From the NCBI GenBank assembly GCA_029564765.1, contig JAKQPK010000023.1:163640-227639 (forward strand): 64,000 bases of DNA, given 5' to 3'. Both the position numbers and the translations under genes were made by a program. Positions within the stretch are counted from its first letter, which is position 1, and the number at the start of each line of letters is the position of its first letter. Under the pieces are notes generated by a model, which was not told the origin of the DNA, searched no databases, and was given only the letters and a program-made list of their open reading frames with translations. This document shows, in pieces, positions 3,718 through 35,848 of this stretch. The DNA comes from Candidatus Omnitrophota bacterium (lineage in GTDB: Bacteria > Omnitrophota > Gorgyraeia > Zapsychrales > Aceulaceae).

Positions 3718-5207
3718 TTTACGTCCTTTTTTTCATCCGCAGCATCAGCAGCGACAATAACACCGGTATTGATCTCAAAATCTTGAACGATCTCTTTTTC
3801 GATCGTGGCTTCTCGGACGGACCTTAAGGTCGATTCTCGAAAATTAGAAACAGATCGTAATTTGCGTATATAAAGCGCAACCGCATCCAGGGTTAAGGCT
3901 TTTCCGGTCAATTTAATATCACCCAGCCTGGAAAGGCTCACAGATTCGATCCATGAATCTTCAGGAGTGGCGCTGGCAACCTTCATAAAAGTATCAGCCC
4001 AAGAGATCTTTTTAAGATCTGAAACAGCGGAGGCCTGCAGTAAAAGCTTGCGTTTAACATCAATGTTCTTTTGGCGTTCGAGGTCCAAAGTAGCTGTTTG
4101 CGCCTCCAGCGCGCGAACCTCGTCACCAGCCTGACGATATTGTTTCAATAGATCCTGGTACTGCGTGTATCCTTTTAAGATGCTCGCGAGCCCAAAAAAA
4201 GCGGTCACAAGCGCAACGATGCTTGCGCCAACAAGAACTTTTCGACGATAGTCAAGCGTACTTCTAAAATCCCAGATCTGAGAAAAATCAAAATGTGTTT
4301 TAGCGGATCGATAGCTCTCCGCGGCTGCCAAGCATGGCAAATACGCGAGGTTCAGGCTTGGCAAGGTTTTCGGTCGCAGCGTCACTGTCTTAGGCAAAGT
4401 CACGGCAACCGCATAACGATTCACAAAAAGGGCAAGGCGTTTTTCAAGGCCTGAGTACTTTTCATTGTCAAACATAATAAGAATGTCACAGATCAAGTTG
4501 TCACGCTGCGTTTCATAAGATTTGATGATGCGTTTTAACTCTTCAGATAAATTCTTAAATGCCTCCTCGTCCAAGGATCCAGTTTGGCCAAGATCGTCCA
4601 AGCCCCAATCTATGCTATAAACCCCCTGACAGCCATGCCCGCTAACAAAAAGGACATAGCTTACCTGCCGCTCTAAAAGAACGTAGGCAATATCCTTAGG
4701 AGGCAATTTTTCAAAAGGAATGTCGATCAAATTAAGAGGGGCCAGGCTAAAAGATAAGGGTTTCAACCCGGAATCCTTCAGAAGACGGATACAAAAATCG
4801 ATCAGATATTTCTCAACAACGCTGTAGATGATGCGAAGCCTTTTCGCTTCGATCGCCTGGTAGCCGCGATAAGTATAATAATAATTACGGGCACTAAAAC
4901 GGCTACCCCGCTCGATATCATTAACGATAATGGTCTCTGCTTCCTTGTGGGACATCGGCGGCAAAAGCATTTCCTTAAAAACAACGCCAGAATGCGTGAG
5001 CGTAAAACAAGCCTTATTCTCAGAGATCCGGTTGGTCTTCAAGAAAGTCCTGAACTCTTTTGCTAAAGACTTGATATCTTTGGACTGAAAGATGTCCTGA
5101 GAAAAAGACAAAAGGGCGGCCTTATGAATAACGATCGACCGCCCTTTTTTTGCAAAGGCGAGAACTCTAATGGATTTATTGCTGATCTCAACTGATAGCA
5201 TGTTCAC
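3714..5207 (-). CDS. PilM-PilN fusion protein (actin-like ATPase-fold PilM fused to a TM plus coiled-coil PilN region)
   Basis: A single uninterrupted 497-aa ORF. Residues ~1-300 look like PilM (MNMLSVEISNKSIRVLAFAKKG...), comparable in length to a standalone PilM. A TM helix follows (LVGASIVALVTAFFGLASIL), then ~170 aa of coiled-coil/periplasmic sequence typical of PilN. Confidence 0.6.
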   Translation of the reverse strand: MNMLSVEISNKSIRVLAFAKKGRSIVIHKAALLSFSQDIFQSKDIKSLAKEFRTFLKTNRISENKACFTLTHSGVVFKEMLLPPMSHKEAETIIVNDIERGSRFSARNYYYTYRGYQAIEAKRLRIIYSVVEKYLIDFCIRLLKDSGLKPLSFSLAPLNLIDIPFEKLPPKDIAYVLLERQVSYVLFVSGHGCQGVYSIDWGLDDLGQTGSLDEEAFKNLSEELKRIIKSYETQRDNLICDILIMFDNEKYSGLEKRLALFVNRYAVAVTLPKTVTLRPKTLPSLNLAYLPCLAAAESYRSAKTHFDFSQIWDFRSTLDYRRKVLVGASIVALVTAFFGLASILKGYTQYQDLLKQYRQAGDEVRALEAQTATLDLERQKNIDVKRKLLLQASAVSDLKKISWADTFMKVASATPEDSWIESVSLSRLGDIKLTGKALTLDAVALYIRKLRSVSNFRESTLRSVREATIEKEIVQDFEINTGVIVAADAADEKKDVK

Positions 5208-9005: not shown

Positions 9006-12000
9006 CTAAACAGCGGCAGGCACAGGGACTTCCTTCTCCACTTCTTTTTCTTCATCGGACAAGCGCACGGAAACGATCTTGGACACGCCGCGCTCCTGCA
9101 TCGTGACACCATACATCACATTAGCGCAATTGATCGTTTTCTTGTTATGCGTGATCACGATGAATTGCGCGATCTTAGAGAACTCCTGCAACAGATAGCT
9201 GTAGCGGCCCACATTGGATTCATCTAGGGCCGCGTCGATCTCATCTAAAACGCAGAAAGGACTGGGCTTGACCTTGAAGACCGCGAAAATAAGCGCGATC
9301 GCGGTCATCGTTTTTTCGCCGCCAGAGAGAAGACCGATGTTCTGCAGCTTCTTTCCTGGAGGGCGGGCGACAATATCAATACCGGATTCCAGGACATTCT
9401 CCTGGTCGACTAAGATCAAATCGGCCTCGCCGCCGCCAAAAAGCATACGGAAATAAATACGGAACTCTTCGCTGACCTTCGTAAAGGTATCCACGAACAG
9501 CTGTCGGGTCGTTTTGTTGATCTTGTTGATCGTCTGCATCAAAGAATCTTTTGCCTGCAGAAGGTCGCTTTGTTGCTTTGTTAAGAATTCAAAACGCTGG
9601 CGAAGCTCTTCGTATTCTTCGATCGCCACGAGATTCACGGTCCCAAAGGATTCGCAATGTTTGCGCAAGGACTGGATATCTTGATCGATCTGATCAAAGC
9701 TGATCTCCGCGCGCGCGGCCGTGATCTTGGCATGGAACGCTTTCACGTCCTCCTGATGTTTCTGCTGGGCCAGCAGTTCATCGCTGGTCAAAGCACTGGC
9801 GACGGCCTCTGGCACGATCATCTCATCCAAGACAGGGTCTGGCTCCCGATAATTAACAAGTTCATCAAAATCAACCTTGTATGCCTGGAAAAGCTTATCT
9901 TTTAAGCTTTGTTCATTAAAAGTGATCTCTTGCTTTTTCAATTCTTGAGCGTGGGCATTGCCTTGGATCTGCTCTAGAGCGCTTTGAACACTCTTGACTT
10001 TCACGCGCACATCAGCGATGCGCGCGAAGATCTCTTCTTTCTGCTGCACGTATGTCGTCAGAACGCTTGCAAGCTCCTGTTGCTTGATCTGCACATCAGC
10101 GATCTTCTGGCGCAAATGCGCAATAGAGGCTTGATATTCCCCTCTTTTGGCCTGATCGTTCTGGTCGTCATCCTCTACCCTTTTCAACTCTTGCGCGCTC
10201 TCGATCAAGGCATCCTCAAACATCTTTAAGTCGCCCTGAAAGGATTGTTCCTGCCCGCGATAAGAATCGATCTGCGTTTCTAGCTGGGTGATCTCAAGCA
10301 GAACGTGTTCGCGTTCTTGGCCCTTAATAGCGATCTCGTCTTGGCGGCCCTTGATCGTCGCCTGAAATGCTTCGATCTCTTGCGTGGCCGTGTTCAACTC
10401 CTGCGTTAAGGCATCCTCTCGGCTCTTTAAATGCGTCAAAGAATCTTTGGTTTCCTGGAGCTCCTGGGTGATAATGTTCAACTCATCAAAAAGCTTGCTT
10501 GACTCTTCCAAGATATTGTTCTTGCGCGCTTCATGGCGTGACAGTTCGCGCTCTTGCTCATGGATCGCCACACCCACGCGGCTGACCTGATTTTCCACCT
10601 CTGTCATTTGAGCAACCATGGCGGCTTTTTGCTCTAAATGACGATCTACTTCCGCGGTCAACTCGTTGATCTGATTAGTGATCTGCTCCGGATCAAGCTC
10701 AATGAATTTTGTTTCACATTTTATTTCATAAACAGATTGGCCATTAGCCAAGGAAACGAAACGCTCACCCAGGCCTCTGACCTGATCTTCTGTTAGCCCT
10801 TCAACGGACCTGATCTTTCCGATGATCCCTTTTTTATCATCTGTCGGCGGCTGGGCTGTGAGCAATGACCCCTGACAAGCCACATCAGACCCTGTCTCAT
10901 ACTGAGCGCGCAGATCCTCGATAAATTCTCGCTTGGATCGAAGGGCTAACTTTAAATTCTCCAGATCGCTGATGGTCTTCTCTAAAACAGCCATCGCCTC
11001 TTTCAGCTGCTGCCAACTTCTTTCATATGTCTCTTTTTCAGCGCGCAGGTCCGCGATCTTTTCCGAGCAACGATCGATGTCTTCAGAGACACTGCGCAAC
11101 TTGTTATCGACATCTTCTTTTTCGCAACCCACTTTATCATTTTCAAAATCCAAACGGCGTTTGCGGGCTAGCGAGCTCTGAAAGCTTTTCATGATCTCGG
11201 TCAGATCGTTCTTAATATGGGTCTGCTTCGTCGACCGCTCAAAGATCGCCTCTTCCTCTTGTTTAATGGCAGATTTATGCTGATGGATCTGTTCTTGCAA
11301 AGAATTCAAAAGTTCCTTTTTCAGATCAAGCTCTTGGGTATTCTTCTGGATACTGTCGACAAGGTTCTGATAGGACGCCTTCAAGCCCAAGACCTTTTCC
11401 TCCTGGCCGCGGCAGCGTTCTTTTAGCTGGACCTTTTGCTCTTCATGGCGCAGATGATCGGTATCAATATTGGCGATACGCTCTTCATTAAAATGGATCT
11501 GGCGGCTTTCGATCTCGATCTGGTTTTCAAGTTTGATATTCTCACGTTGCAGTTCATTAGCTTTCTCGTCCAACTCGCTGACCAAACGGTTCTCTTCCGC
11601 GAGCTGATGGTTCAGCTTCTCTAATTCATCACCAAGCAAAGACTCTTCTTTCTGATAGCTCTGCAAAGAATTTTCCAGGTCCTGTCGTTCTTGATTAAAA
11701 TTCGTGATATGTTTTTGCGCGGCAAAAAACTCCAAGACCTTCAAGCGCTCATGTTCTTCCTTATACTTCTGCGCTTTCTTTGCTTGTCGCTCAATGGAAG
11801 CGATCTGACGTTTTACCTCTGTGATAATGTCATTACTGCGTAACAAATTATTCTCAACATCTTCAAGCTTGTTCAATGCCTCACGTTTCTTTGCCTTGTA
11901 TTTGGTGATCCCTGCCGCTTCATCGAAGATCAGTCGGCGGTCATCCGGGCGAGCGCTCACGACAAGATCCACCTTCCCTTGCTGAACCAAAGAATACGCC

Positions 12001-32075: not shown

Positions 32076-33911
32076 CTAATCTATAGCGTCCGATACGATC
32101 TGCTGTAGAAGCTCCCGAACCTTTTTGTGATCATATGCTTGCGCGCAAGCCAAAAGGCCGCGGATCTTCTTCCGTAAAGCTTTTATATCAAAAGTATCCG
32201 CGGGGGCGACAAAGATCTTGTCGTATTTTGTTGCCGCGTCCAGCTCTCTGTTCAAGAACAGCTCCTCTTTAAGCTTTTCCCCTGGGCGAAGCCCAACAAA
32301 TGAGATCTGGATGTCCTTCTCCGGAACAAGGCCGGAAAGAATGATCAACTCTTTTGCCAGGTCAACTATTTTGATCTGCTCGCCCATGTCCAAGACAAAG
32401 ATCTCTCCGCCCTGACCGATCACGCTCGCCTGCAAAACAAGCAGAACCGCCTCATGAACGCTCATAAAGTACCTTTGGGCCTGCAGATGCGTGACCGTGA
32501 CCGGGCCGCCCTCTTCAATTTGCTTTAAAAATAACGGGACAATGCTCCCCGCGGAACCAAGGACATTGCCAAAACGAACAGCCATAAATTTCGTCCGGCT
32601 CTTCTTCGCCTTAGCCTGCAAAAGCATCTCGGCAACACGCTTGGTAGCCCCCATCACGCTGGAGGGATGGACAGCCTTATCCGTCGAGATCAGAATAAAG
32701 CGTTCGACCCTATAGTGATGCGAGGCATAGATCAGGTTGCCTGTACCTAAAACATTATTCTTAACGGCCGCGGCAGGATTTTCCTCTAATAGCGGAACAT
32801 GCTTATGCGCGGCGGCATGAAAAACAACCTGAGGCTTATAACGAGAAAAGGCATGCTTGAGCACGCCAACGTCCTTGATATCCCCAATAACAGTTGTAAA
32901 ACGAATATGAGGATGTTTGGTAAGAAAATCGATCGTTAAGAAATATACGTCATTCTCATTGTGATCAAACAAGATGATCTCTTGGGGTTCAAAACGCGCG
33001 ATCTGCTTGCATAAAGCCGATCCGATCGATCCTCCCGCGCCCGTGACCAAAACGACCTTGCCCTTAAGATACGTGCTGATCGTCTGCTCATCCACGTGAA
33101 CGGTTTCTCTGCCGAGGAGATCTTCAGGCGTGATGGCCCGAGGCTTTACCTCTTGCTCACCGCTTAATATTTTTTGCAAGCCTGGGACAATGCGGATCTT
33201 AATGGACGGGATCTGACAGCATGAGATAATGCTGCGGATCTCTTCACCCTTGGCTGAAGGAATAGCCAAGACGATCTCTTCGACCTCATAACGCTCAACA
33301 AGAGCCGGGATATCATGGCGCCCACCCAGGATCCTAACACCTTGAATACAAAGATTCTTTTTATGCGGATCATCATCAACAAAGCCTATGACATCAATAT
33401 TTGCCTGAGGGTTGTTGCGCGCCTCGCGTAACACCAAAACGCCTGCCTCGCCAGCGCCAACGACCAAGACCTTTTTTCTCTTCCTGGTGAACATGGGACG
33501 AAATCGTTCACGAAAAAAACGAACCGCGAAACGGACCCCGGCCATTAAAAAAAAGCTGATGATGCAGTCTAAGACGATGACCGAACGAGGAAGGCCGGTT
33601 CTTGGAAAAAACAATTTTAACCCTGCAACAAAAATGATGGTCGATAAAAAATTGGCCTTGGCAATTCTCCAGATATCATCGATGCCGGCATATTTCCAAA
33701 GCCCTGAAAAAAGACTGTGGTACGCAAGAAGCAGGAATTTAATGATCAAAAGAAACGGAAGGGTTCGCCAGATCACCGGCCAATACCCGTGATCAAGCTT
33801 GAAATCAAACCGTAGATAAAACGCTAAAAGATAGGCAGCAAGAACCAATATCAAATGAAGAAAAATGGCCAAAGGCCGCCTGAATTTTAGGATCAACGCC
33901 TTGATATGCAT
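32076..33911 (-). CDS. Membrane-anchored NDP-sugar 4,6-dehydratase (CapD / WbpM / PglF family)
   Basis: 611 aa. Four N-terminal TM helices are followed by two Rossmann domains (VLVVGAGEAG... and VLVTGAGGSIGSALCKQI). The family core HAAAHKHVPLLEENP is present. Confidence 0.85.
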   Translation of the reverse strand: MHIKALILKFRRPLAIFLHLILVLAAYLLAFYLRFDFKLDHGYWPVIWRTLPFLLIIKFLLLAYHSLFSGLWKYAGIDDIWRIAKANFLSTIIFVAGLKLFFPRTGLPRSVIVLDCIISFFLMAGVRFAVRFFRERFRPMFTRKRKKVLVVGAGEAGVLVLREARNNPQANIDVIGFVDDDPHKKNLCIQGVRILGGRHDIPALVERYEVEEIVLAIPSAKGEEIRSIISCCQIPSIKIRIVPGLQKILSGEQEVKPRAITPEDLLGRETVHVDEQTISTYLKGKVVLVTGAGGSIGSALCKQIARFEPQEIILFDHNENDVYFLTIDFLTKHPHIRFTTVIGDIKDVGVLKHAFSRYKPQVVFHAAAHKHVPLLEENPAAAVKNNVLGTGNLIYASHHYRVERFILISTDKAVHPSSVMGATKRVAEMLLQAKAKKSRTKFMAVRFGNVLGSAGSIVPLFLKQIEEGGPVTVTHLQAQRYFMSVHEAVLLVLQASVIGQGGEIFVLDMGEQIKIVDLAKELIILSGLVPEKDIQISFVGLRPGEKLKEELFLNRELDAATKYDKIFVAPADTFDIKALRKKIRGLLACAQAYDHKKVRELLQQIVSDAID

Positions 33912-34051
33912 AAGGTTATATTATATCCTTTTAGAAAATTATCAACTATCTTGAATGTAAAAATATGCACATCTATGCTTCACCTACACCCCAAGGATCA
34001 AATACTAAACACTAAATCCTGAATACTAAATACCAGATACTATATACCAGA

Positions 34052-34086
34052 CACAAAACTCTAAATTCTAAACTCTAAATACTGCA
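34052..34086. repeat. Left copy of a ~35-bp imperfect direct repeat, embedded in CTAAAT/ACTAAAT-rich AT-rich DNA (33990-34110)
   Basis: The left copy acacaaaactctaaattctaaactctaaatact matches the right copy at 35208-35240 (acacaaaacactaacttctaagctctaaacact). By my hand alignment about 29 of 33 positions are identical. The surrounding DNA is full of ACTAAAT/CTAAAT iterations. Confidence 0.45.
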
Positions 34087-34118
34087 TACTAAATGCTATA
34101 TACTCTCTACTCCATCCT

Positions 34119-35201
34119 CTATTCCTCTTCATAAAGCTTTGCATACCCCCGCTCAAGAAGCTCCTGATTAAGATAGGTTCCCTGTTGGGCCACGATCTCG
34201 GGATCTTTTTCCGTTAACGAGTAAAAGATGTCCGCCAAATACCTGCCGTATTTATCTTCCCTGTATGTCTTGCAAACAACACAATCAACCTTGTTAAAGA
34301 TCTCTTGCACATATTCTTTGGCCGCCATGCCTAAAACGGTTGACACCTCCGGCGCGTCAATACCGCGCAGGCGCAATTTTTGTTCGATCCACGAATCAAA
34401 TCCCAGATCAACATACAAAACCAAGGTATCCGCGTCCACGATCTTAACAATAGTGGCTTTATATGTGTATAGATACTCTGGATGTTTTGTGGCCCGTCGG
34501 ATAGAATAACCCTCTTTGTCCTTATAAGACGTCACGGGCACAGGACTTCGGTTTGTCTGCCAGTCAGGAATATCCACTTTGCGCAAGATCCCAAAACCCA
34601 TATCCACAAGGGCCTGACGCGGTTGACATGAGATATCTTTACGGAACAAGCACCGATAACGATAAAGCTTGCCGCGCACACAAGCCAGCTCTCCGGGCTT
34701 GGCTAAGGCCGTAAGCTGGCCCGCCTCTTTTTTCTTTTCCTGGGTGATCTTATCCATAAAGATCAGCTGATATAATTTTTGGGATGACAACCCCTCTCTG
34801 ATCGCCTGCTGTTCGAATCGCTGACGCTGACGCGCGTCATCAACGCGGATCAGATCGGAATAATGGCTCCAGGTCAAAGGTGTTGTCGGCAGAGAGGGAT
34901 AAAAACGGTAAAATTTGGATAGATCGTAGAAAAAACTTGTTGGGCGCTCCAGGTCTTTAGACAGCCGCTCGATCATGCGCGCGCGCTCGCTGCTGTTCTC
35001 AAAATCGCCCGCGAAGGGCTCTTCCAGGATCTTTCCGATATTCCAATGGGTTTGCAAGACTTGCAGGCGGTAGGATTCCTCGATATTGCGCTTGCCCTCT
35101 AAGATCTGCTGCTGGATCTTTGTGAGGATCTCTCGATAAAAATGATTAGAAAGGATCTTGGTCATGAAAAAAGATCTGTACTGCTCTCCTTTACATAACA
35201 C
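34119..35201 (-). CDS. Chimeric predicted nuclease: a YhcG-type DUF1016 N-terminal domain fused to a C-terminal staphylococcal-nuclease (SNase/thermonuclease) domain
   Basis: 360 aa. The N-terminal region matches the DUF1016_N pattern: LQVLQTHWNIGKIL (compare lYWeIGkrI), LSKDLERP, LTWSHYSDLIRVDDARQRQRFEQQAIREGLSSQKL. The C-terminal ~120 aa read VKIVDADTLVLYVDLG...KLRLRGIDAPE followed by the conserved R/Y (DKYGRYLADIF), which is the SNase catalytic core. Canonical YhcG proteins carry a PD-(D/E)xK domain at this position instead. Confidence 0.6.
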   Translation of the reverse strand: MLCKGEQYRSFFMTKILSNHFYREILTKIQQQILEGKRNIEESYRLQVLQTHWNIGKILEEPFAGDFENSSERARMIERLSKDLERPTSFFYDLSKFYRFYPSLPTTPLTWSHYSDLIRVDDARQRQRFEQQAIREGLSSQKLYQLIFMDKITQEKKKEAGQLTALAKPGELACVRGKLYRYRCLFRKDISCQPRQALVDMGFGILRKVDIPDWQTNRSPVPVTSYKDKEGYSIRRATKHPEYLYTYKATIVKIVDADTLVLYVDLGFDSWIEQKLRLRGIDAPEVSTVLGMAAKEYVQEIFNKVDCVVCKTYREDKYGRYLADIFYSLTEKDPEIVAQQGTYLNQELLERGYAKLYEEE

Positions 35202-35207
35202 AAAACA

Positions 35208-35240
35208 CTAACTTCTAAGCTCTAAACACTAAATACCATG
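35208..35240. repeat. Right copy of the ~35-bp direct repeat flanking the nuclease gene
   Basis: See the left copy at 34052-34086. It is followed by aaataccatgtac, which is similar to aaataccagatac near the left copy. Confidence 0.45.
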
Positions 35241-35287
35241 TACTTTTCATGCTTTGCTGTTCACATTTCACTCTTTGCAAGCTTCTC

Positions 35288-35848
35288 TTAATGCCGCACG
35301 CCCTCCTTTTTCACAACCTTCCAAGCGGTGAGAAAAAGAATACGCAGATCAAGCCAAAAACATCGATGCTTAAGATAATATTCATCAAAAGAAACTTTAA
35401 CGGGAATAGGTAGGTCATCTCTGCCATTAACTTGAGCCCAGCCTGTTATACCTGGAACAAGAACATGTACACCCTTCTTCGTGCGCAAGGCCACCAGATC
35501 ATCTTGGTTGAAAAGTGCTGGCCTGGGCCCCACAAAACTCATATCGCCTTTTAAAACATTGAATAATTGCGGCAATTCATCGAGGCTGTATTTGCGCAAA
35601 GCTTCTCCTCCGGGGATCAGATACTGCTGCGGATTCTCCATCAAATGCGTTGCCACTTGAGGTGTATCGATACGCATCGTTCTAAATTTAGCCATTTTAA
35701 AGATCACATTATTACGGCCAATGCGGTCTGTCCAGAAAATGGCAGGACCTTTGGACCTCCCCTTGATCCATAACGCAATGACGATCATAGGGACAGCAAG
35801 TAATATGATTAAAATTACAGATAAAATTAAATCAAAGAAACGTTTCAT
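35288..35848 (-). CDS. Initiating phosphoglycosyltransferase (small bacterial sugar transferase, PglC/WbaP-C-terminal type)
   Basis: 186 aa with a single re-entrant N-terminal helix. It carries the family motifs KRFFDLILS, DELPQLFNVLKGDMSFVGPRP and the C-terminal GITGWAQV. Confidence 0.85.
   Translation of the reverse strand: MKRFFDLILSVILIILLAVPMIVIALWIKGRSKGPAIFWTDRIGRNNVIFKMAKFRTMRIDTPQVATHLMENPQQYLIPGGEALRKYSLDELPQLFNVLKGDMSFVGPRPALFNQDDLVALRTKKGVHVLVPGITGWAQVNGRDDLPIPVKVSFDEYYLKHRCFWLDLRILFLTAWKVVKKEGVRH

What the first reader, a model, noticed from the sequence alone, without database searches (positions are those of the whole stretch)
33912..35287. Chimeric DUF1016(YhcG)-N / SNase nuclease inserted between the PglF/CapD-like and PglC-like genes, bracketed by direct repeats
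The 360-aa protein joins a YhcG-type N-terminal domain to a staphylococcal-nuclease catalytic domain. The motif matches are given on the 34119-35201 feature. YhcG proteins normally carry a PD-(D/E)xK nuclease there, so this is a nuclease-domain swap on an uncharacterised scaffold. The gene interrupts a CapD/PglF - PglC pair that is usually adjacent. It is flanked on both sides by an imperfect ~35-bp direct repeat (34052-34086 and 35208-35240), each sitting in CTAAAT-rich AT-rich DNA. This looks like an acquired or inserted cassette, possibly a solitary defence or DNA-processing nuclease or a remnant of a mobile insertion. An alternative reading is that the repeats are duplicated promoter modules, with one copy preceding this gene and one preceding the CapD-like gene.
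Basis: partly seen in the sequence, partly recalled or inferred. Interest (0 to 1): 0.7.

Follow-up and report, generated by a model that had tools for sequence, protein, structure and literature searches.

The report
Resident fusion nuclease in glycan locus
A gene in a cell-surface sugar locus of an uncultured Omnitrophota bacterium encodes an uncharacterised nuclease made of a DNA-binding-like domain fused to a staphylococcal-type cutting domain; it has long sat in a spot that collects toxin and defence genes, and the flanking 'repeats' are 7-base tandem arrays, not insertion scars.

Summary
ORF 34119-35201(-) most likely starts at ATG 35165 (348 aa). It has DUF1016_N and SNase domains, both above Pfam gathering scores, a full SNase catalytic set and no YhcG PD-(D/E)xK domain. 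It lies between a PglC-like and a CapD/PglF-like gene. The two flanking spacers share a 35-nt stretch at 80% identity.

- The protein is not a one-off chimera. The family has about 1,140 50%-identity clusters and 301 loci in GTDB species genomes, mostly Omnitrophota. No paper was found on it.
- The gene is not a recent insertion. Orthologues at 63-88% identity sit in the same glycan locus in at least seven relatives and diverge roughly in step with PglC and CapD. They lie in a spot that gathers HipBA, AbiE, Fic, RhuM and AAA_14 genes. Only the order differs: NUC-PglC-CapD in relatives, PglC-NUC-CapD here.
- The "direct repeats" are heptanucleotide tandem arrays (AGTATNT on the gene strand). 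Arrays of this kind fill spacers in several Omnitrophota. The upstream one travels with the nuclease gene.

The best reading is a cytoplasmic nuclease serving defence or addiction. This function is inferred and untested.

The parts
34119..35165 (-). Gene for the 348-aa DUF1016_N / beta-domain / SNase nuclease. The mechanical ORF runs on to a GTG at 35201.
   Evidence: ORF. 100% identical 348-aa database protein P0001, and homologues that start at the same Met. AF2 model with mean pLDDT 88.8.
34761..35117 (-). DUF1016_N helical domain, residues 17-135 of the 348-aa protein. It resembles ParB/KorB-type DNA-binding domains.
34494..34661 (-). Small all-beta middle domain, residues ~169-224. It is specific to this family.
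   Evidence: Strands E169-224 in the AF2 model. Conserved G165, Y170, D188, G190, F191. It is the most divergent part of the family, at 24-27% mean pairwise identity.
34131..34466 (-). SNase (thermonuclease-fold) catalytic domain, residues ~234-345, with a complete catalytic set.
35196..35275 (-). Upstream composite heptad-phased element, read on the gene strand: AGAGTGA AATGTGA ... then GGTATTT AGTGTTT AGAGCTT AGAAGTT AGTGTTT. It ends 30 nt before the ATG.
   Evidence: Sequence. TRF period 7. It aligns with the elements upstream of the orthologues in L005 and L215, although the preceding genes differ.
34000..34104 (-). Downstream array of 15 heptamers (AGTATNT on the gene strand). It starts 15 nt after the nuclease stop and lies upstream of the CapD promoter.
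   Evidence: TRF: period 7, 15 copies, 71% matches, score 77. Sequence. 24% C on the + strand and 4% G there, so it is C-poor on the gene strand. No RNA structure, z 0.25.
33918..33945 (-). Sigma70-like promoter of the CapD/PglF-like gene (TTGATA-16-TAATAT). The equivalent promoter is kept in L005, L007 and L215.
   Evidence: Consensus scan. Comparable TTGCCA/TTGCTA ... TATAAT sequences lie upstream of CapD in L005, L007 and L215. It is a consensus match only; function is not shown.
32076..33911 (-). CapD/PglF-like 4,6-dehydratase gene, the conserved flank.
   Evidence: Pfam families for the identical gene in L001. 74-75% identical to the orthologues in L005, L007, L213 and L215.
35288..35848 (-). 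PglC-like initiating sugar-phosphate transferase gene (Bac_transf), the conserved flank.
   Evidence: PF02397 for the identical gene in L001. 77-82% identical to orthologues that lie directly upstream of CapD in relatives.

Best explanation
The gene encodes a cytoplasmic, three-part nuclease. Part one is an N-terminal helical DUF1016_N domain of the YhcG family whose fold resembles ParB/KorB DNA-binding domains. Part two is a small beta domain. Part three is a catalytically complete staphylococcal-nuclease domain that replaces the PD-(D/E)xK domain of YhcG proteins.

It belongs to a large, unnamed, single-gene family. In this Omnitrophota clade the gene is a long-standing resident of an accessory-gene hotspot. 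The hotspot lies at the junction between the variable and the conserved parts of a surface-polysaccharide locus. It is not a recent insertion. In the window's lineage only the local order changed, to PglC-NUC-CapD.

Inferred mechanism: the fast-evolving N-terminal and middle domains recognise a nucleic-acid target or signal and hold the conserved, non-specific SNase effector in check. The effector then degrades DNA or RNA of an invading element, or of the cell. That makes it a conflict (defence or addiction) nuclease.

The flanking 'direct repeats' are heptanucleotide tandem arrays of the STRR/TAACTGA kind. They form the spacers in front of independently transcribed cassettes. The upstream array belongs to the nuclease gene's own 5' region. 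The arrays are not target-site duplications or att sites.
For: Shown:
- Domains and fold.
- Catalytic residues conserved.
- Homology to YhcG-type proteins ends at about residue 150-165.
- Family size: 134 hits, 301 GTDB loci with several copies per genome, and 1,140 50%-cluster representatives at E<=1e-30, the top 150 all full length.
- No conserved partner. The 137 immediate neighbours fall into 179 Pfam families. HipA, AAA_14, HTH, AbiEi, Fic and ORF6N are among the commonest, each in only 2-3 of the 137, as are some sugar-synthesis families.
- Orthologues in the same glycan locus: L003/L004, L005, L007, L213, L215/L216. L009 repeats the NUC/AbiEi-like pairing of L007 on a short contig. Relatives at 42-45% identity are also next to sugar-nucleotide or glycosyltransferase genes plus AAA_14, Fic or AbiEii.
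- Rough co-divergence with PglC and CapD.
- GC like the core genes.
- SNase domain 50-52% mean pairwise identity, against 27-29% for the N domain and 24-27% for the middle domain.
- Arrays: period 7; in every spacer of the L005 hotspot; 30 of 45 arrays lie in the 13.8% of DNA that is intergenic; the upstream element is orthologous in three lineages.

From the literature:
- DUF1016 genes are enriched beside invertible RM/BREX loci (PMC9881135).
- Intergenic heptamer repeats are known in Beggiatoaceae, cyanobacteria and Bacteroidetes (PMC4679880).
Against: - No experiment supports a defence role. The one PDC-S02 representative tested against T4, T5 and T7 gave no protection (bioRxiv 10.1101/2024.09.26.614923).
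- Only a minority of immediate neighbours are defence models: AbiEi x3, PDC-S01 x2, PDC-S05 x2, PDC-M03A x3 of 137. Many neighbours are housekeeping genes.
- Long vertical retention at one locus is unusual for defence genes.
- The polarity of the rearrangement is not proven. The window is the outgroup to the four best-sampled relatives, and the L003/L004 contigs end just after the gene.
- The function of the arrays is unknown.
Confidence: 0.55

Rival explanations
1. The gene is a recently acquired mobile cassette that inserted between PglC and CapD, and the flanking direct repeats are the insertion signature (duplicated target or att-like sites).
For: PglC and CapD are adjacent, with 54-123 nt spacers and no arrays, in L005, L007, L213 and L215. 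In the window the unit array-gene-array sits exactly between the PglC stop and the CapD promoter. The family is multi-copy and scattered in other genomes. Distant homologues sit on Leptospira plasmids next to integrase and Rpn transposase genes.
Against: Orthologues sit in the same locus in all close relatives, with roughly co-divergent identities. GC equals the core. No transposase or integrase is among the Pfam-annotated genes of the 21 kb around the gene. No terminal inverted repeats were found. The repeats are multi-copy 7-nt arrays that also flank unrelated cassettes and are missing around the L007, L009 and L213 orthologues. The upstream array is inherited with the gene.
Confidence: 0.1
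2. It is a locus-linked housekeeping or regulatory protein. The DUF1016_N domain binds DNA at the glycan locus, possibly the heptamer arrays. The SNase domain processes nucleic acid for a cellular purpose such as nucleotide salvage in these ultra-small, host-dependent bacteria, or control of glycan-gene expression.
For: There is long-term vertical retention beside PglC/CapD. The link to sugar loci holds even at 42-45% identity. The N domain has a ParB/KorB-like fold. An orthologous array lies upstream of the gene.
Against: Most family members are not in glycan loci. Genomes carry several divergent paralogues. L007, L009 and L213 orthologues lack arrays, and in the fetched loci arrays lie next to the nuclease gene only in the window's closest relatives, so the arrays cannot be an obligatory target. 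The N and middle domains evolve fast, which is unusual for a housekeeping DNA-binding protein.
Confidence: 0.2
3. The heptamer arrays are recombination substrates, and the hotspot is a cassette array. Cassettes including the nuclease are shuffled, duplicated or lost by recombination between arrays. That would explain the changed position of the nuclease in the window.
For: Every cassette in L005 is separated by arrays of one family. AAA_14 and HipBA cassettes occur twice there, and a 189-bp unit is duplicated at 4340-4738. L007 has a 5' fragment of a second nuclease copy at the left edge of the hotspot. In the window, arrays lie at both borders of the relocated gene. The L003 and L004 contigs end 18 and 164 nt after the nuclease stop, in or next to arrays.
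Against: The L007 and L213 hotspots carry different cargo without arrays. No recombinase is associated with the hotspot. The arrays show no stable fold. Arrays of other units occur in ordinary spacers of other Omnitrophota, and AGTAT-type arrays follow tRNA genes in unassigned metagenome contigs. That points to a general spacer element.
Confidence: 0.15

Closest known systems
YhcG / DUF1016 family (Pfam PF17761 + PF06250; PADLOC candidate PDC-S02)
   Same: Homologous N-terminal domain: Pfam E 3.8e-11, PDC-S02 profiles E down to 1e-14. Similar length, single-gene organisation, and an accessory or mobile context. YhcG-type genes sit beside RM/BREX loci and on ICEs (PMC9881135, PMC4316617).
   Different: The C-terminal PD-(D/E)xK nuclease domain is absent. 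It is replaced by a beta domain plus an SNase domain, an unrelated fold with Ca2+-dependent chemistry in the type enzyme. Neither family has a demonstrated function.
Staphylococcal nuclease / thermonuclease (Nuc, NucI, EcnA; PF00565)
   Different: There is no secretion signal; the N-terminus is hydrophilic (sequence). A 230-residue N-terminal extension is present. Scores are far below the NCBIfam equivalog cut-offs: EcnA 41 against 180, NucI 20 against 250. Phage and viral SNase proteins match the C domain only.
Single-protein defence nucleases with a variable sensor domain and a conserved nuclease effector (for example Shedu SduA). This comparison rests on my own knowledge and was not tested here.
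   Same: The design logic matches: a conserved nuclease effector (50-52% identity) joined to fast-diverging N-terminal modules (24-29%). The gene is solitary, has a patchy multi-copy distribution, and has TA/Abi neighbours.
   Different: The domains are different. The PADLOC models matched only through the DUF1016_N part (PDC-S02 only). No phage assay exists.
Intergenic heptanucleotide direct-repeat arrays: cyanobacterial STRR, TAACTGA repeats of Beggiatoaceae/cyanobacteria/Bacteroidetes (PMC4679880), and TTTTGAT heptads of the V. cholerae ctxAB promoter
   Same: Tandem 7-nt units in arrays of about 5-15 copies. They are strongly intergenic, strand-biased, lineage-specific in sequence and lack predicted structure.
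   Different: The units differ: AGTATNT, RRNGTGA and ATAGCGT, combined into composite elements. Here they lie between a stop codon and the next promoter rather than just before start codons. In the L005 lineage they are concentrated in an accessory-gene hotspot. In other Omnitrophota they form inverted pairs around a ~100-bp core.

Membership tests
YhcG/DUF1016 family | DUF1016_N domain (PF17761) | tested here: met
   43.7 bits against gathering score 32.8, covering profile positions 2-130 of 137.
YhcG/DUF1016 family | C-terminal YhcG PD-(D/E)xK nuclease domain (PF06250) | tested here: not met
   No PF06250 hit at E<=1. Full-length PDC-S02 profiles align only over their first ~145-176 positions. 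The C-terminal part is SNase by sequence and fold.
Staphylococcal nuclease (SNase) superfamily | SNase domain by profile and OB-type fold | tested here: met
Staphylococcal nuclease (SNase) superfamily | Catalytic and Ca2+ ligands (D21, D40, T41 region, R35, E43, R87) | tested here: met
   D246, D270, R265 and R308 are invariant, and E273 is present in >=90% of 33 homologues.
Named thermonucleases (NCBIfam EcnA, NucI equivalogs) | Score above the equivalog cut-off | tested here: not met
   EcnA 41.4 bits against cut-off 180. NucI 19.7 bits against 250.
PADLOC PDC-S02 candidate defence gene | Full-length match to a PDC-S02 model | tested here: not met
   There are 20 PDC-S02 models with hits, all confined to residues ~9-164 of the protein.
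PADLOC PDC-S02 candidate defence gene | Protection against phage | not testable with these tools
   The only report found is one PDC-S02 representative that gave no protection against T4, T5 and T7 (bioRxiv 10.1101/2024.09.26.614923).
Transposon / IS insertion | Terminal inverted repeats, a short target-site duplication, and a transposase | tested here: not met
   No flanking terminal inverted repeats. The direct similarity is a multi-copy 7-nt array, not a single duplication. No transposase or integrase family is among the Pfam-annotated genes of the 21 kb around the gene, though two products there have no Pfam hit.
Integron gene cassette | attC-type imperfect palindrome at the cassette 3' end | tested here: not met
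   The spacers fold no better than shuffles, z 0.25 and 1.11. The inverted-repeat search found no such palindrome. Presence of an integron integrase elsewhere in the genome was not tested.
STRR-like intergenic heptanucleotide arrays | Tandem 7-nt unit, several copies, intergenic | tested here: met
   TRF period 7, 15 and ~5 copies. Both arrays lie in spacers. Across 1.24 Mb of related loci, 30 of 45 arrays lie in the 13.8% that is intergenic.
STRR-like intergenic heptanucleotide arrays | Many dispersed copies of the same unit across the genome | tested here: inconclusive
   Only 64 kb of this genome is available, and it holds two arrays. L005 has six in 6.5 kb. The metagenome scan pattern was too loose to assign hits to this lineage.
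ParB/KorB-type HTH DNA-binding domain | Fold similarity of the N domain to solved ParB/KorB DNA-binding domains | tested here: inconclusive

The most novel reading that the evidence does not exclude
In some Omnitrophota the junction between the variable and the conserved parts of the surface-glycan locus is a recombinase-independent cassette array. Composite heptamer-array elements act as cassette borders and regulatory insulators. The conserved DUF1016_N-SNase nuclease is both the anchor of this array and a new kind of single-gene immunity or addiction effector. Its ParB/KorB-like domain would sense foreign or damaged DNA and release a non-specific SNase.
Probability: 0.08. Interest if true: 0.75.

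Novelty: new variant of a known kind. Interest (0 to 1): 0.4.

Why it matters
YhcG/DUF1016 proteins are among the commonest uncharacterised genes in restriction-modification and BREX neighbourhoods. This family shows that their N-terminal domain is a portable module that can drive a completely different nuclease. That argues the N domain is the recognition or regulatory part, and it offers a second, biochemically well-understood effector (SNase) for working out what the module senses.

The locus also shows that in Omnitrophota, a phylum without cultured members (PMC10066038, abstract seen), the edge of the glycan-variable region collects toxin-antitoxin and defence genes. There, unusual heptanucleotide arrays make up the spacers. 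If these arrays prove to be regulatory or recombinogenic, they would explain how such hotspots are organised.

The practical value is moderate. No function has been shown, and the family already exists in databases under generic names.

Tried and rejected
- N-domain-only homology search. It returned a single 93-aa fragment, so it says nothing about which other effectors are fused to DUF1016_N.
- Metagenome scan with GTATNTRGTATNTRGTATNT. The pattern was too permissive. They serve only as anecdotes: arrays after tRNA genes, and inverted array hairpins.
- Rfam on the spacers and on the whole window, and tRNA search. Nothing was found.
- RNA folding of both spacers. They fold no better than shuffles, so a hairpin terminator or attC-like structure was rejected.
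- The afdb50 library was unavailable. The viral library gave only SNase-domain matches.
- Search for a conserved partner gene by clustering 526 neighbours. None was found beyond the glycan genes of close relatives.
- Idea that the nuclease targets the arrays. Rejected as a general rule, because in the loci examined arrays lie next to the gene only in the window's closest relatives.
- Leptospira plasmid homologues as a model. They share the architecture, but the D40-equivalent residue is replaced and the SNase score falls below threshold, so they may be inactive.
Full report
**What is there.** The window has an ORF at 34119-35201 on the minus strand. A 348-aa protein in public databases, P0001, is 100% identical to it. 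NCBI names it 'DUF1016 N-terminal domain-containing protein [Candidatus Omnitrophota bacterium]'. It starts at the ATG at 35165, and all homologues start at the equivalent MTK/MSK. I therefore take 34119-35165 as the gene.

Pfam gives DUF1016_N (43.7 bits, gathering score 32.8) and SNase (40.5 bits, gathering score 21), with no YhcG_C hit. Twenty PADLOC PDC-S02 (YhcG-type) profiles match. Each matches only through its first ~145-176 positions and only residues ~9-164 of the protein. So homology to YhcG proteins stops where their PD-(D/E)xK domain would begin. The 'nuclease-domain swap' is real.

**Structure and active site.** An AlphaFold2 model built on 33 homologues has mean pLDDT 88.8. It shows three parts:
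- six helices, residues 7-154
- a small beta domain, residues 169-224
- an SNase fold, residues 234-345

**How common it is.** The architecture recurs widely:
- 134 hits, nearly all carrying both domains at 320-390 aa
- 301 loci in GTDB species representatives. Most are Omnitrophota. Others are Leptospiraceae, Latescibacterota and MAGs labelled Planctomycetales. Several genomes have three to five copies.
- 1,140 50%-identity cluster representatives at E<=1e-30, the top 150 all full length

Sources name these proteins only generically. No paper in the searchable library mentions DUF1016 together with SNase. Phage and viral collections contain only the SNase part. Twenty-four Leptospira plasmids carry distant full-length homologues as solitary genes near integrase, Rpn transposase and RHS toxin genes. 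In these the D40-equivalent residue is replaced and the SNase score is below threshold.

Across the family the SNase domain is much better conserved (50-52% mean pairwise identity) than the N domain (27-29%) or the middle domain (24-27%).

**Neighbourhoods.** There is no conserved partner gene. The 137 immediate neighbours of 80 loci fall into 179 Pfam families. HipA, AAA_14, HTH, AbiEi, Fic and ORF6N are among the commonest, but each occurs in only 2-3 of the 137, level with glycosyltransferase and hexapeptide-transferase families. Housekeeping genes such as tRNA synthetases and LpxI are also present. Only a few neighbours match PADLOC models. The link to classical defence islands is therefore weak.

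**Is it an insertion?** Close relatives answer this.

| Locus | Nuclease identity to window | Gene order |
|---|---|---|
| L215/L216 | 67% | epimerase - NUC - PglC - CapD - Wzy |
| L005 | 66% | epimerase - AAA_14 - HipBA - NUC - HipBA - AAA_14 - PglC - CapD |
| L007 | 64% | epimerase - nuc fragment - RhuM - AAA_14 - NUC - AbiEi/AbiEii - PglC - CapD |
| L213 | 63% | Fic - HipBA - NUC - AbiE - PglC - CapD |
| L003/L004 | 82-88% | glycosyltransferases - NUC, then contig end |

Even relatives at 42-45% identity lie beside sugar-nucleotide or glycosyltransferase genes with AAA_14, Fic or AbiEii. Pairwise identities between the window and these relatives are 63-67% for the nuclease, 77-82% for PglC and 74-75% for CapD. 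The groupings are broadly the same for all three genes. The gene's GC (47-51%) matches CapD, whereas the variable glycan genes upstream are at 33-40%.

The gene is therefore an old resident of an accessory-gene hotspot at the edge of the variable part of the glycan locus. What is special in the window is only the order PglC-NUC-CapD. This does interrupt a pair that is adjacent in four other lineages. Which order is ancestral is not proven. The window is the outgroup to those four, and the nearest relatives' contigs end just after the gene. Their upstream neighbour is a GT2 gene, not PglC, which makes the window's order the more likely derived one (inference).

**The repeats.** The two spacers share a 35-nt stretch with 28 identities. 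None of 1000 first-order Markov-resampled sequence pairs reached that score. The stretch is part of 7-nt tandem arrays with 15 copies at 34000-34104 and about 5 copies at 35197-35233. Read on the gene strand the units are AGTATNT. Upstream of the nuclease they are preceded by RRNGTGA heptads. The gene strand is C-poor. Neither spacer folds better than shuffles, and Rfam finds nothing.

The same composite elements, with ATAGCGT, RRNGTGA and AGTATNT units, occupy every spacer of the L005 hotspot. They also occupy the spacer upstream of the nuclease in L215. The elements upstream of the nuclease in window, L005 and L215 align with each other although the preceding gene is PglC, HipA and epimerase respectively. 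That array therefore belongs to the nuclease gene's 5' region and moved with it. A sigma70-like promoter lies between the downstream array and CapD.

The orthologues in L007, L009 and L213 have no arrays. Other Omnitrophota have arrays of other heptamers, sometimes as inverted pairs around a ~100-bp core in consecutive spacers (L054). Across 1.24 Mb of related loci, 30 of 45 arrays lie in the 13.8% that is intergenic.

These are therefore lineage-specific intergenic heptanucleotide arrays. They are of the kind described as STRR in cyanobacteria and as TAACTGA repeats in Beggiatoaceae (PMC4679880). They are not insertion scars. Their function is unknown. Their position between a stop codon and the next promoter suggests an insulator or a regulator-binding role (inference). 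A role as homology patches for cassette shuffling is not excluded. L005 has duplicated cassettes and a 189-bp duplication, and L007 has a nuclease 5' fragment.

**Mechanism.** The following are shown: the domain composition, a complete SNase catalytic set, the missing secretion signal, single-gene organisation, and a conserved effector with fast-evolving N-terminal modules. The following is inferred. The N-terminal and middle domains recognise a nucleic-acid target or signal and restrain the non-specific nuclease, which then degrades DNA or RNA of an invading element or of the cell. This is the logic of single-protein defence or addiction nucleases.

Three points count against a defence role. 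Enrichment of known defence genes next to family members is weak. The gene has been held vertically for a long time. The one PDC-S02 representative tested by others gave no protection against T4, T5 or T7. I put about 0.4 on defence or addiction and about 0.2 on a locus-linked housekeeping or regulatory role.

**Verdict.** The protein is a new variant of the YhcG/DUF1016 kind. It is abundant in metagenomes but uncharacterised and not discussed in the literature I could search. Interest is moderate at 0.4. The heptamer-array spacers are the least explained feature and deserve their own follow-up.

Noticed in passing
L005:4300-10725 (GCA_028693815.1, JAQUUP010000015.1): Every spacer of a TA/ATPase hotspot (AAA_14, HipBA, nuclease, HipBA, AAA_14) carries composite heptamer arrays with ATAGCGT, RRNGTGA and AGTATNT units. 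A 189-bp unit is duplicated at 4340-4738. It holds a hairpin-like core (GCGCTTTAGTTTAC...GTAAACTATGCGC) between arrays.
   Followed up: partly
L054:4400-7200 (Omnitrophota JBFWOS010000001.1): A different genome has a different heptamer (GATAAGN). Forward arrays are followed by a conserved ~100-bp core and then an inverted array (CTTATCN). This repeats in at least five consecutive spacers between small genes. It looks like a MITE/REP-like element family built from heptamer arrays. The core shares a GTGAAGC motif with the L005, L004 and window spacers.
   Followed up: partly
L007:4724-4927: A truncated 5' fragment (residues 1-66, then a stop) of a second nuclease copy lies right after the epimerase gene, at the left edge of the hotspot. 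RhuM and AAA_14 lie between it and the intact gene. This suggests past recombination or insertion within the nuclease gene.
   Followed up: partly
window:35850-48600: Over 35.8-42 kb the glycan genes upstream of PglC have much lower GC (33-40%) than CapD, the nuclease and the downstream genes (45-52%). This is consistent with a horizontally exchanged variable block that ends near the nuclease. From 42 kb to the 48.6 kb spacer the extent is inferred from the gene map, not measured.
   Followed up: partly
L181:~79-150, L185:~770-1000, L205:~1768-1810 (metagenome contigs): AGTATNT-type heptamer arrays begin 5-10 nt after sequences that look like tRNA 3' ends (T-arm and acceptor motifs seen by eye; no tRNA scan was run on these contigs). 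In other contigs (L104, L122, L167, L187, L203, L208) forward and inverted arrays abut to form long hairpins. The organisms are unidentified.
   Followed up: no
L209:6010-7002 and L210:5911-6909 (Leptospira interrogans pLiSL14, L. weilii pD13): Plasmid-borne homologues in cultured pathogenic Leptospira keep the DUF1016_N / beta / SNase-like layout. They read RLHNVWSAEL in place of RLRGIDAPEV, so the D40-equivalent is lost. They fall below the Pfam SNase threshold and may be inactive or repurposed.
   Followed up: partly
L014:10865-10899 (homologue P0023): A 7-nt periodic DNA tract lies inside the coding region of a nuclease homologue. P0023 also has a ~45-residue insertion (GVKGQGARVKGQ...) in the SNase domain, and the tract may encode it (position not checked). 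If so, an array has been absorbed into a gene.
   Followed up: no
L003 (contig end at 9056) and L004 (contig end at 9202): Both contigs of the closest relatives stop 18 and 164 nt after the nuclease stop codon. L004 ends just past a heptamer array. The arrays may break short-read assemblies and so hide the downstream gene order.
   Followed up: no
L005:4845-6188 and 10765-11901; L007:6747-7877; L211:8226-9539: AAA_14 + DUF4143 ATPase genes recur next to the nuclease in several lineages, twice in L005. They are another uncharacterised solitary gene type of this hotspot. RhuM, also present in L007, is PADLOC PDC-S05, and one representative of it was reported to protect against T4, T5 and T7.
   Followed up: no
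window:16568-16648: The short spacer between convergent genes contains CTAAACCCTAAAT. It gives the highest alignment score to the nuclease's upstream spacer among all other spacers (31 against 12-24), but it has no 7-nt periodicity. It may be a degenerate array remnant.
   Followed up: no
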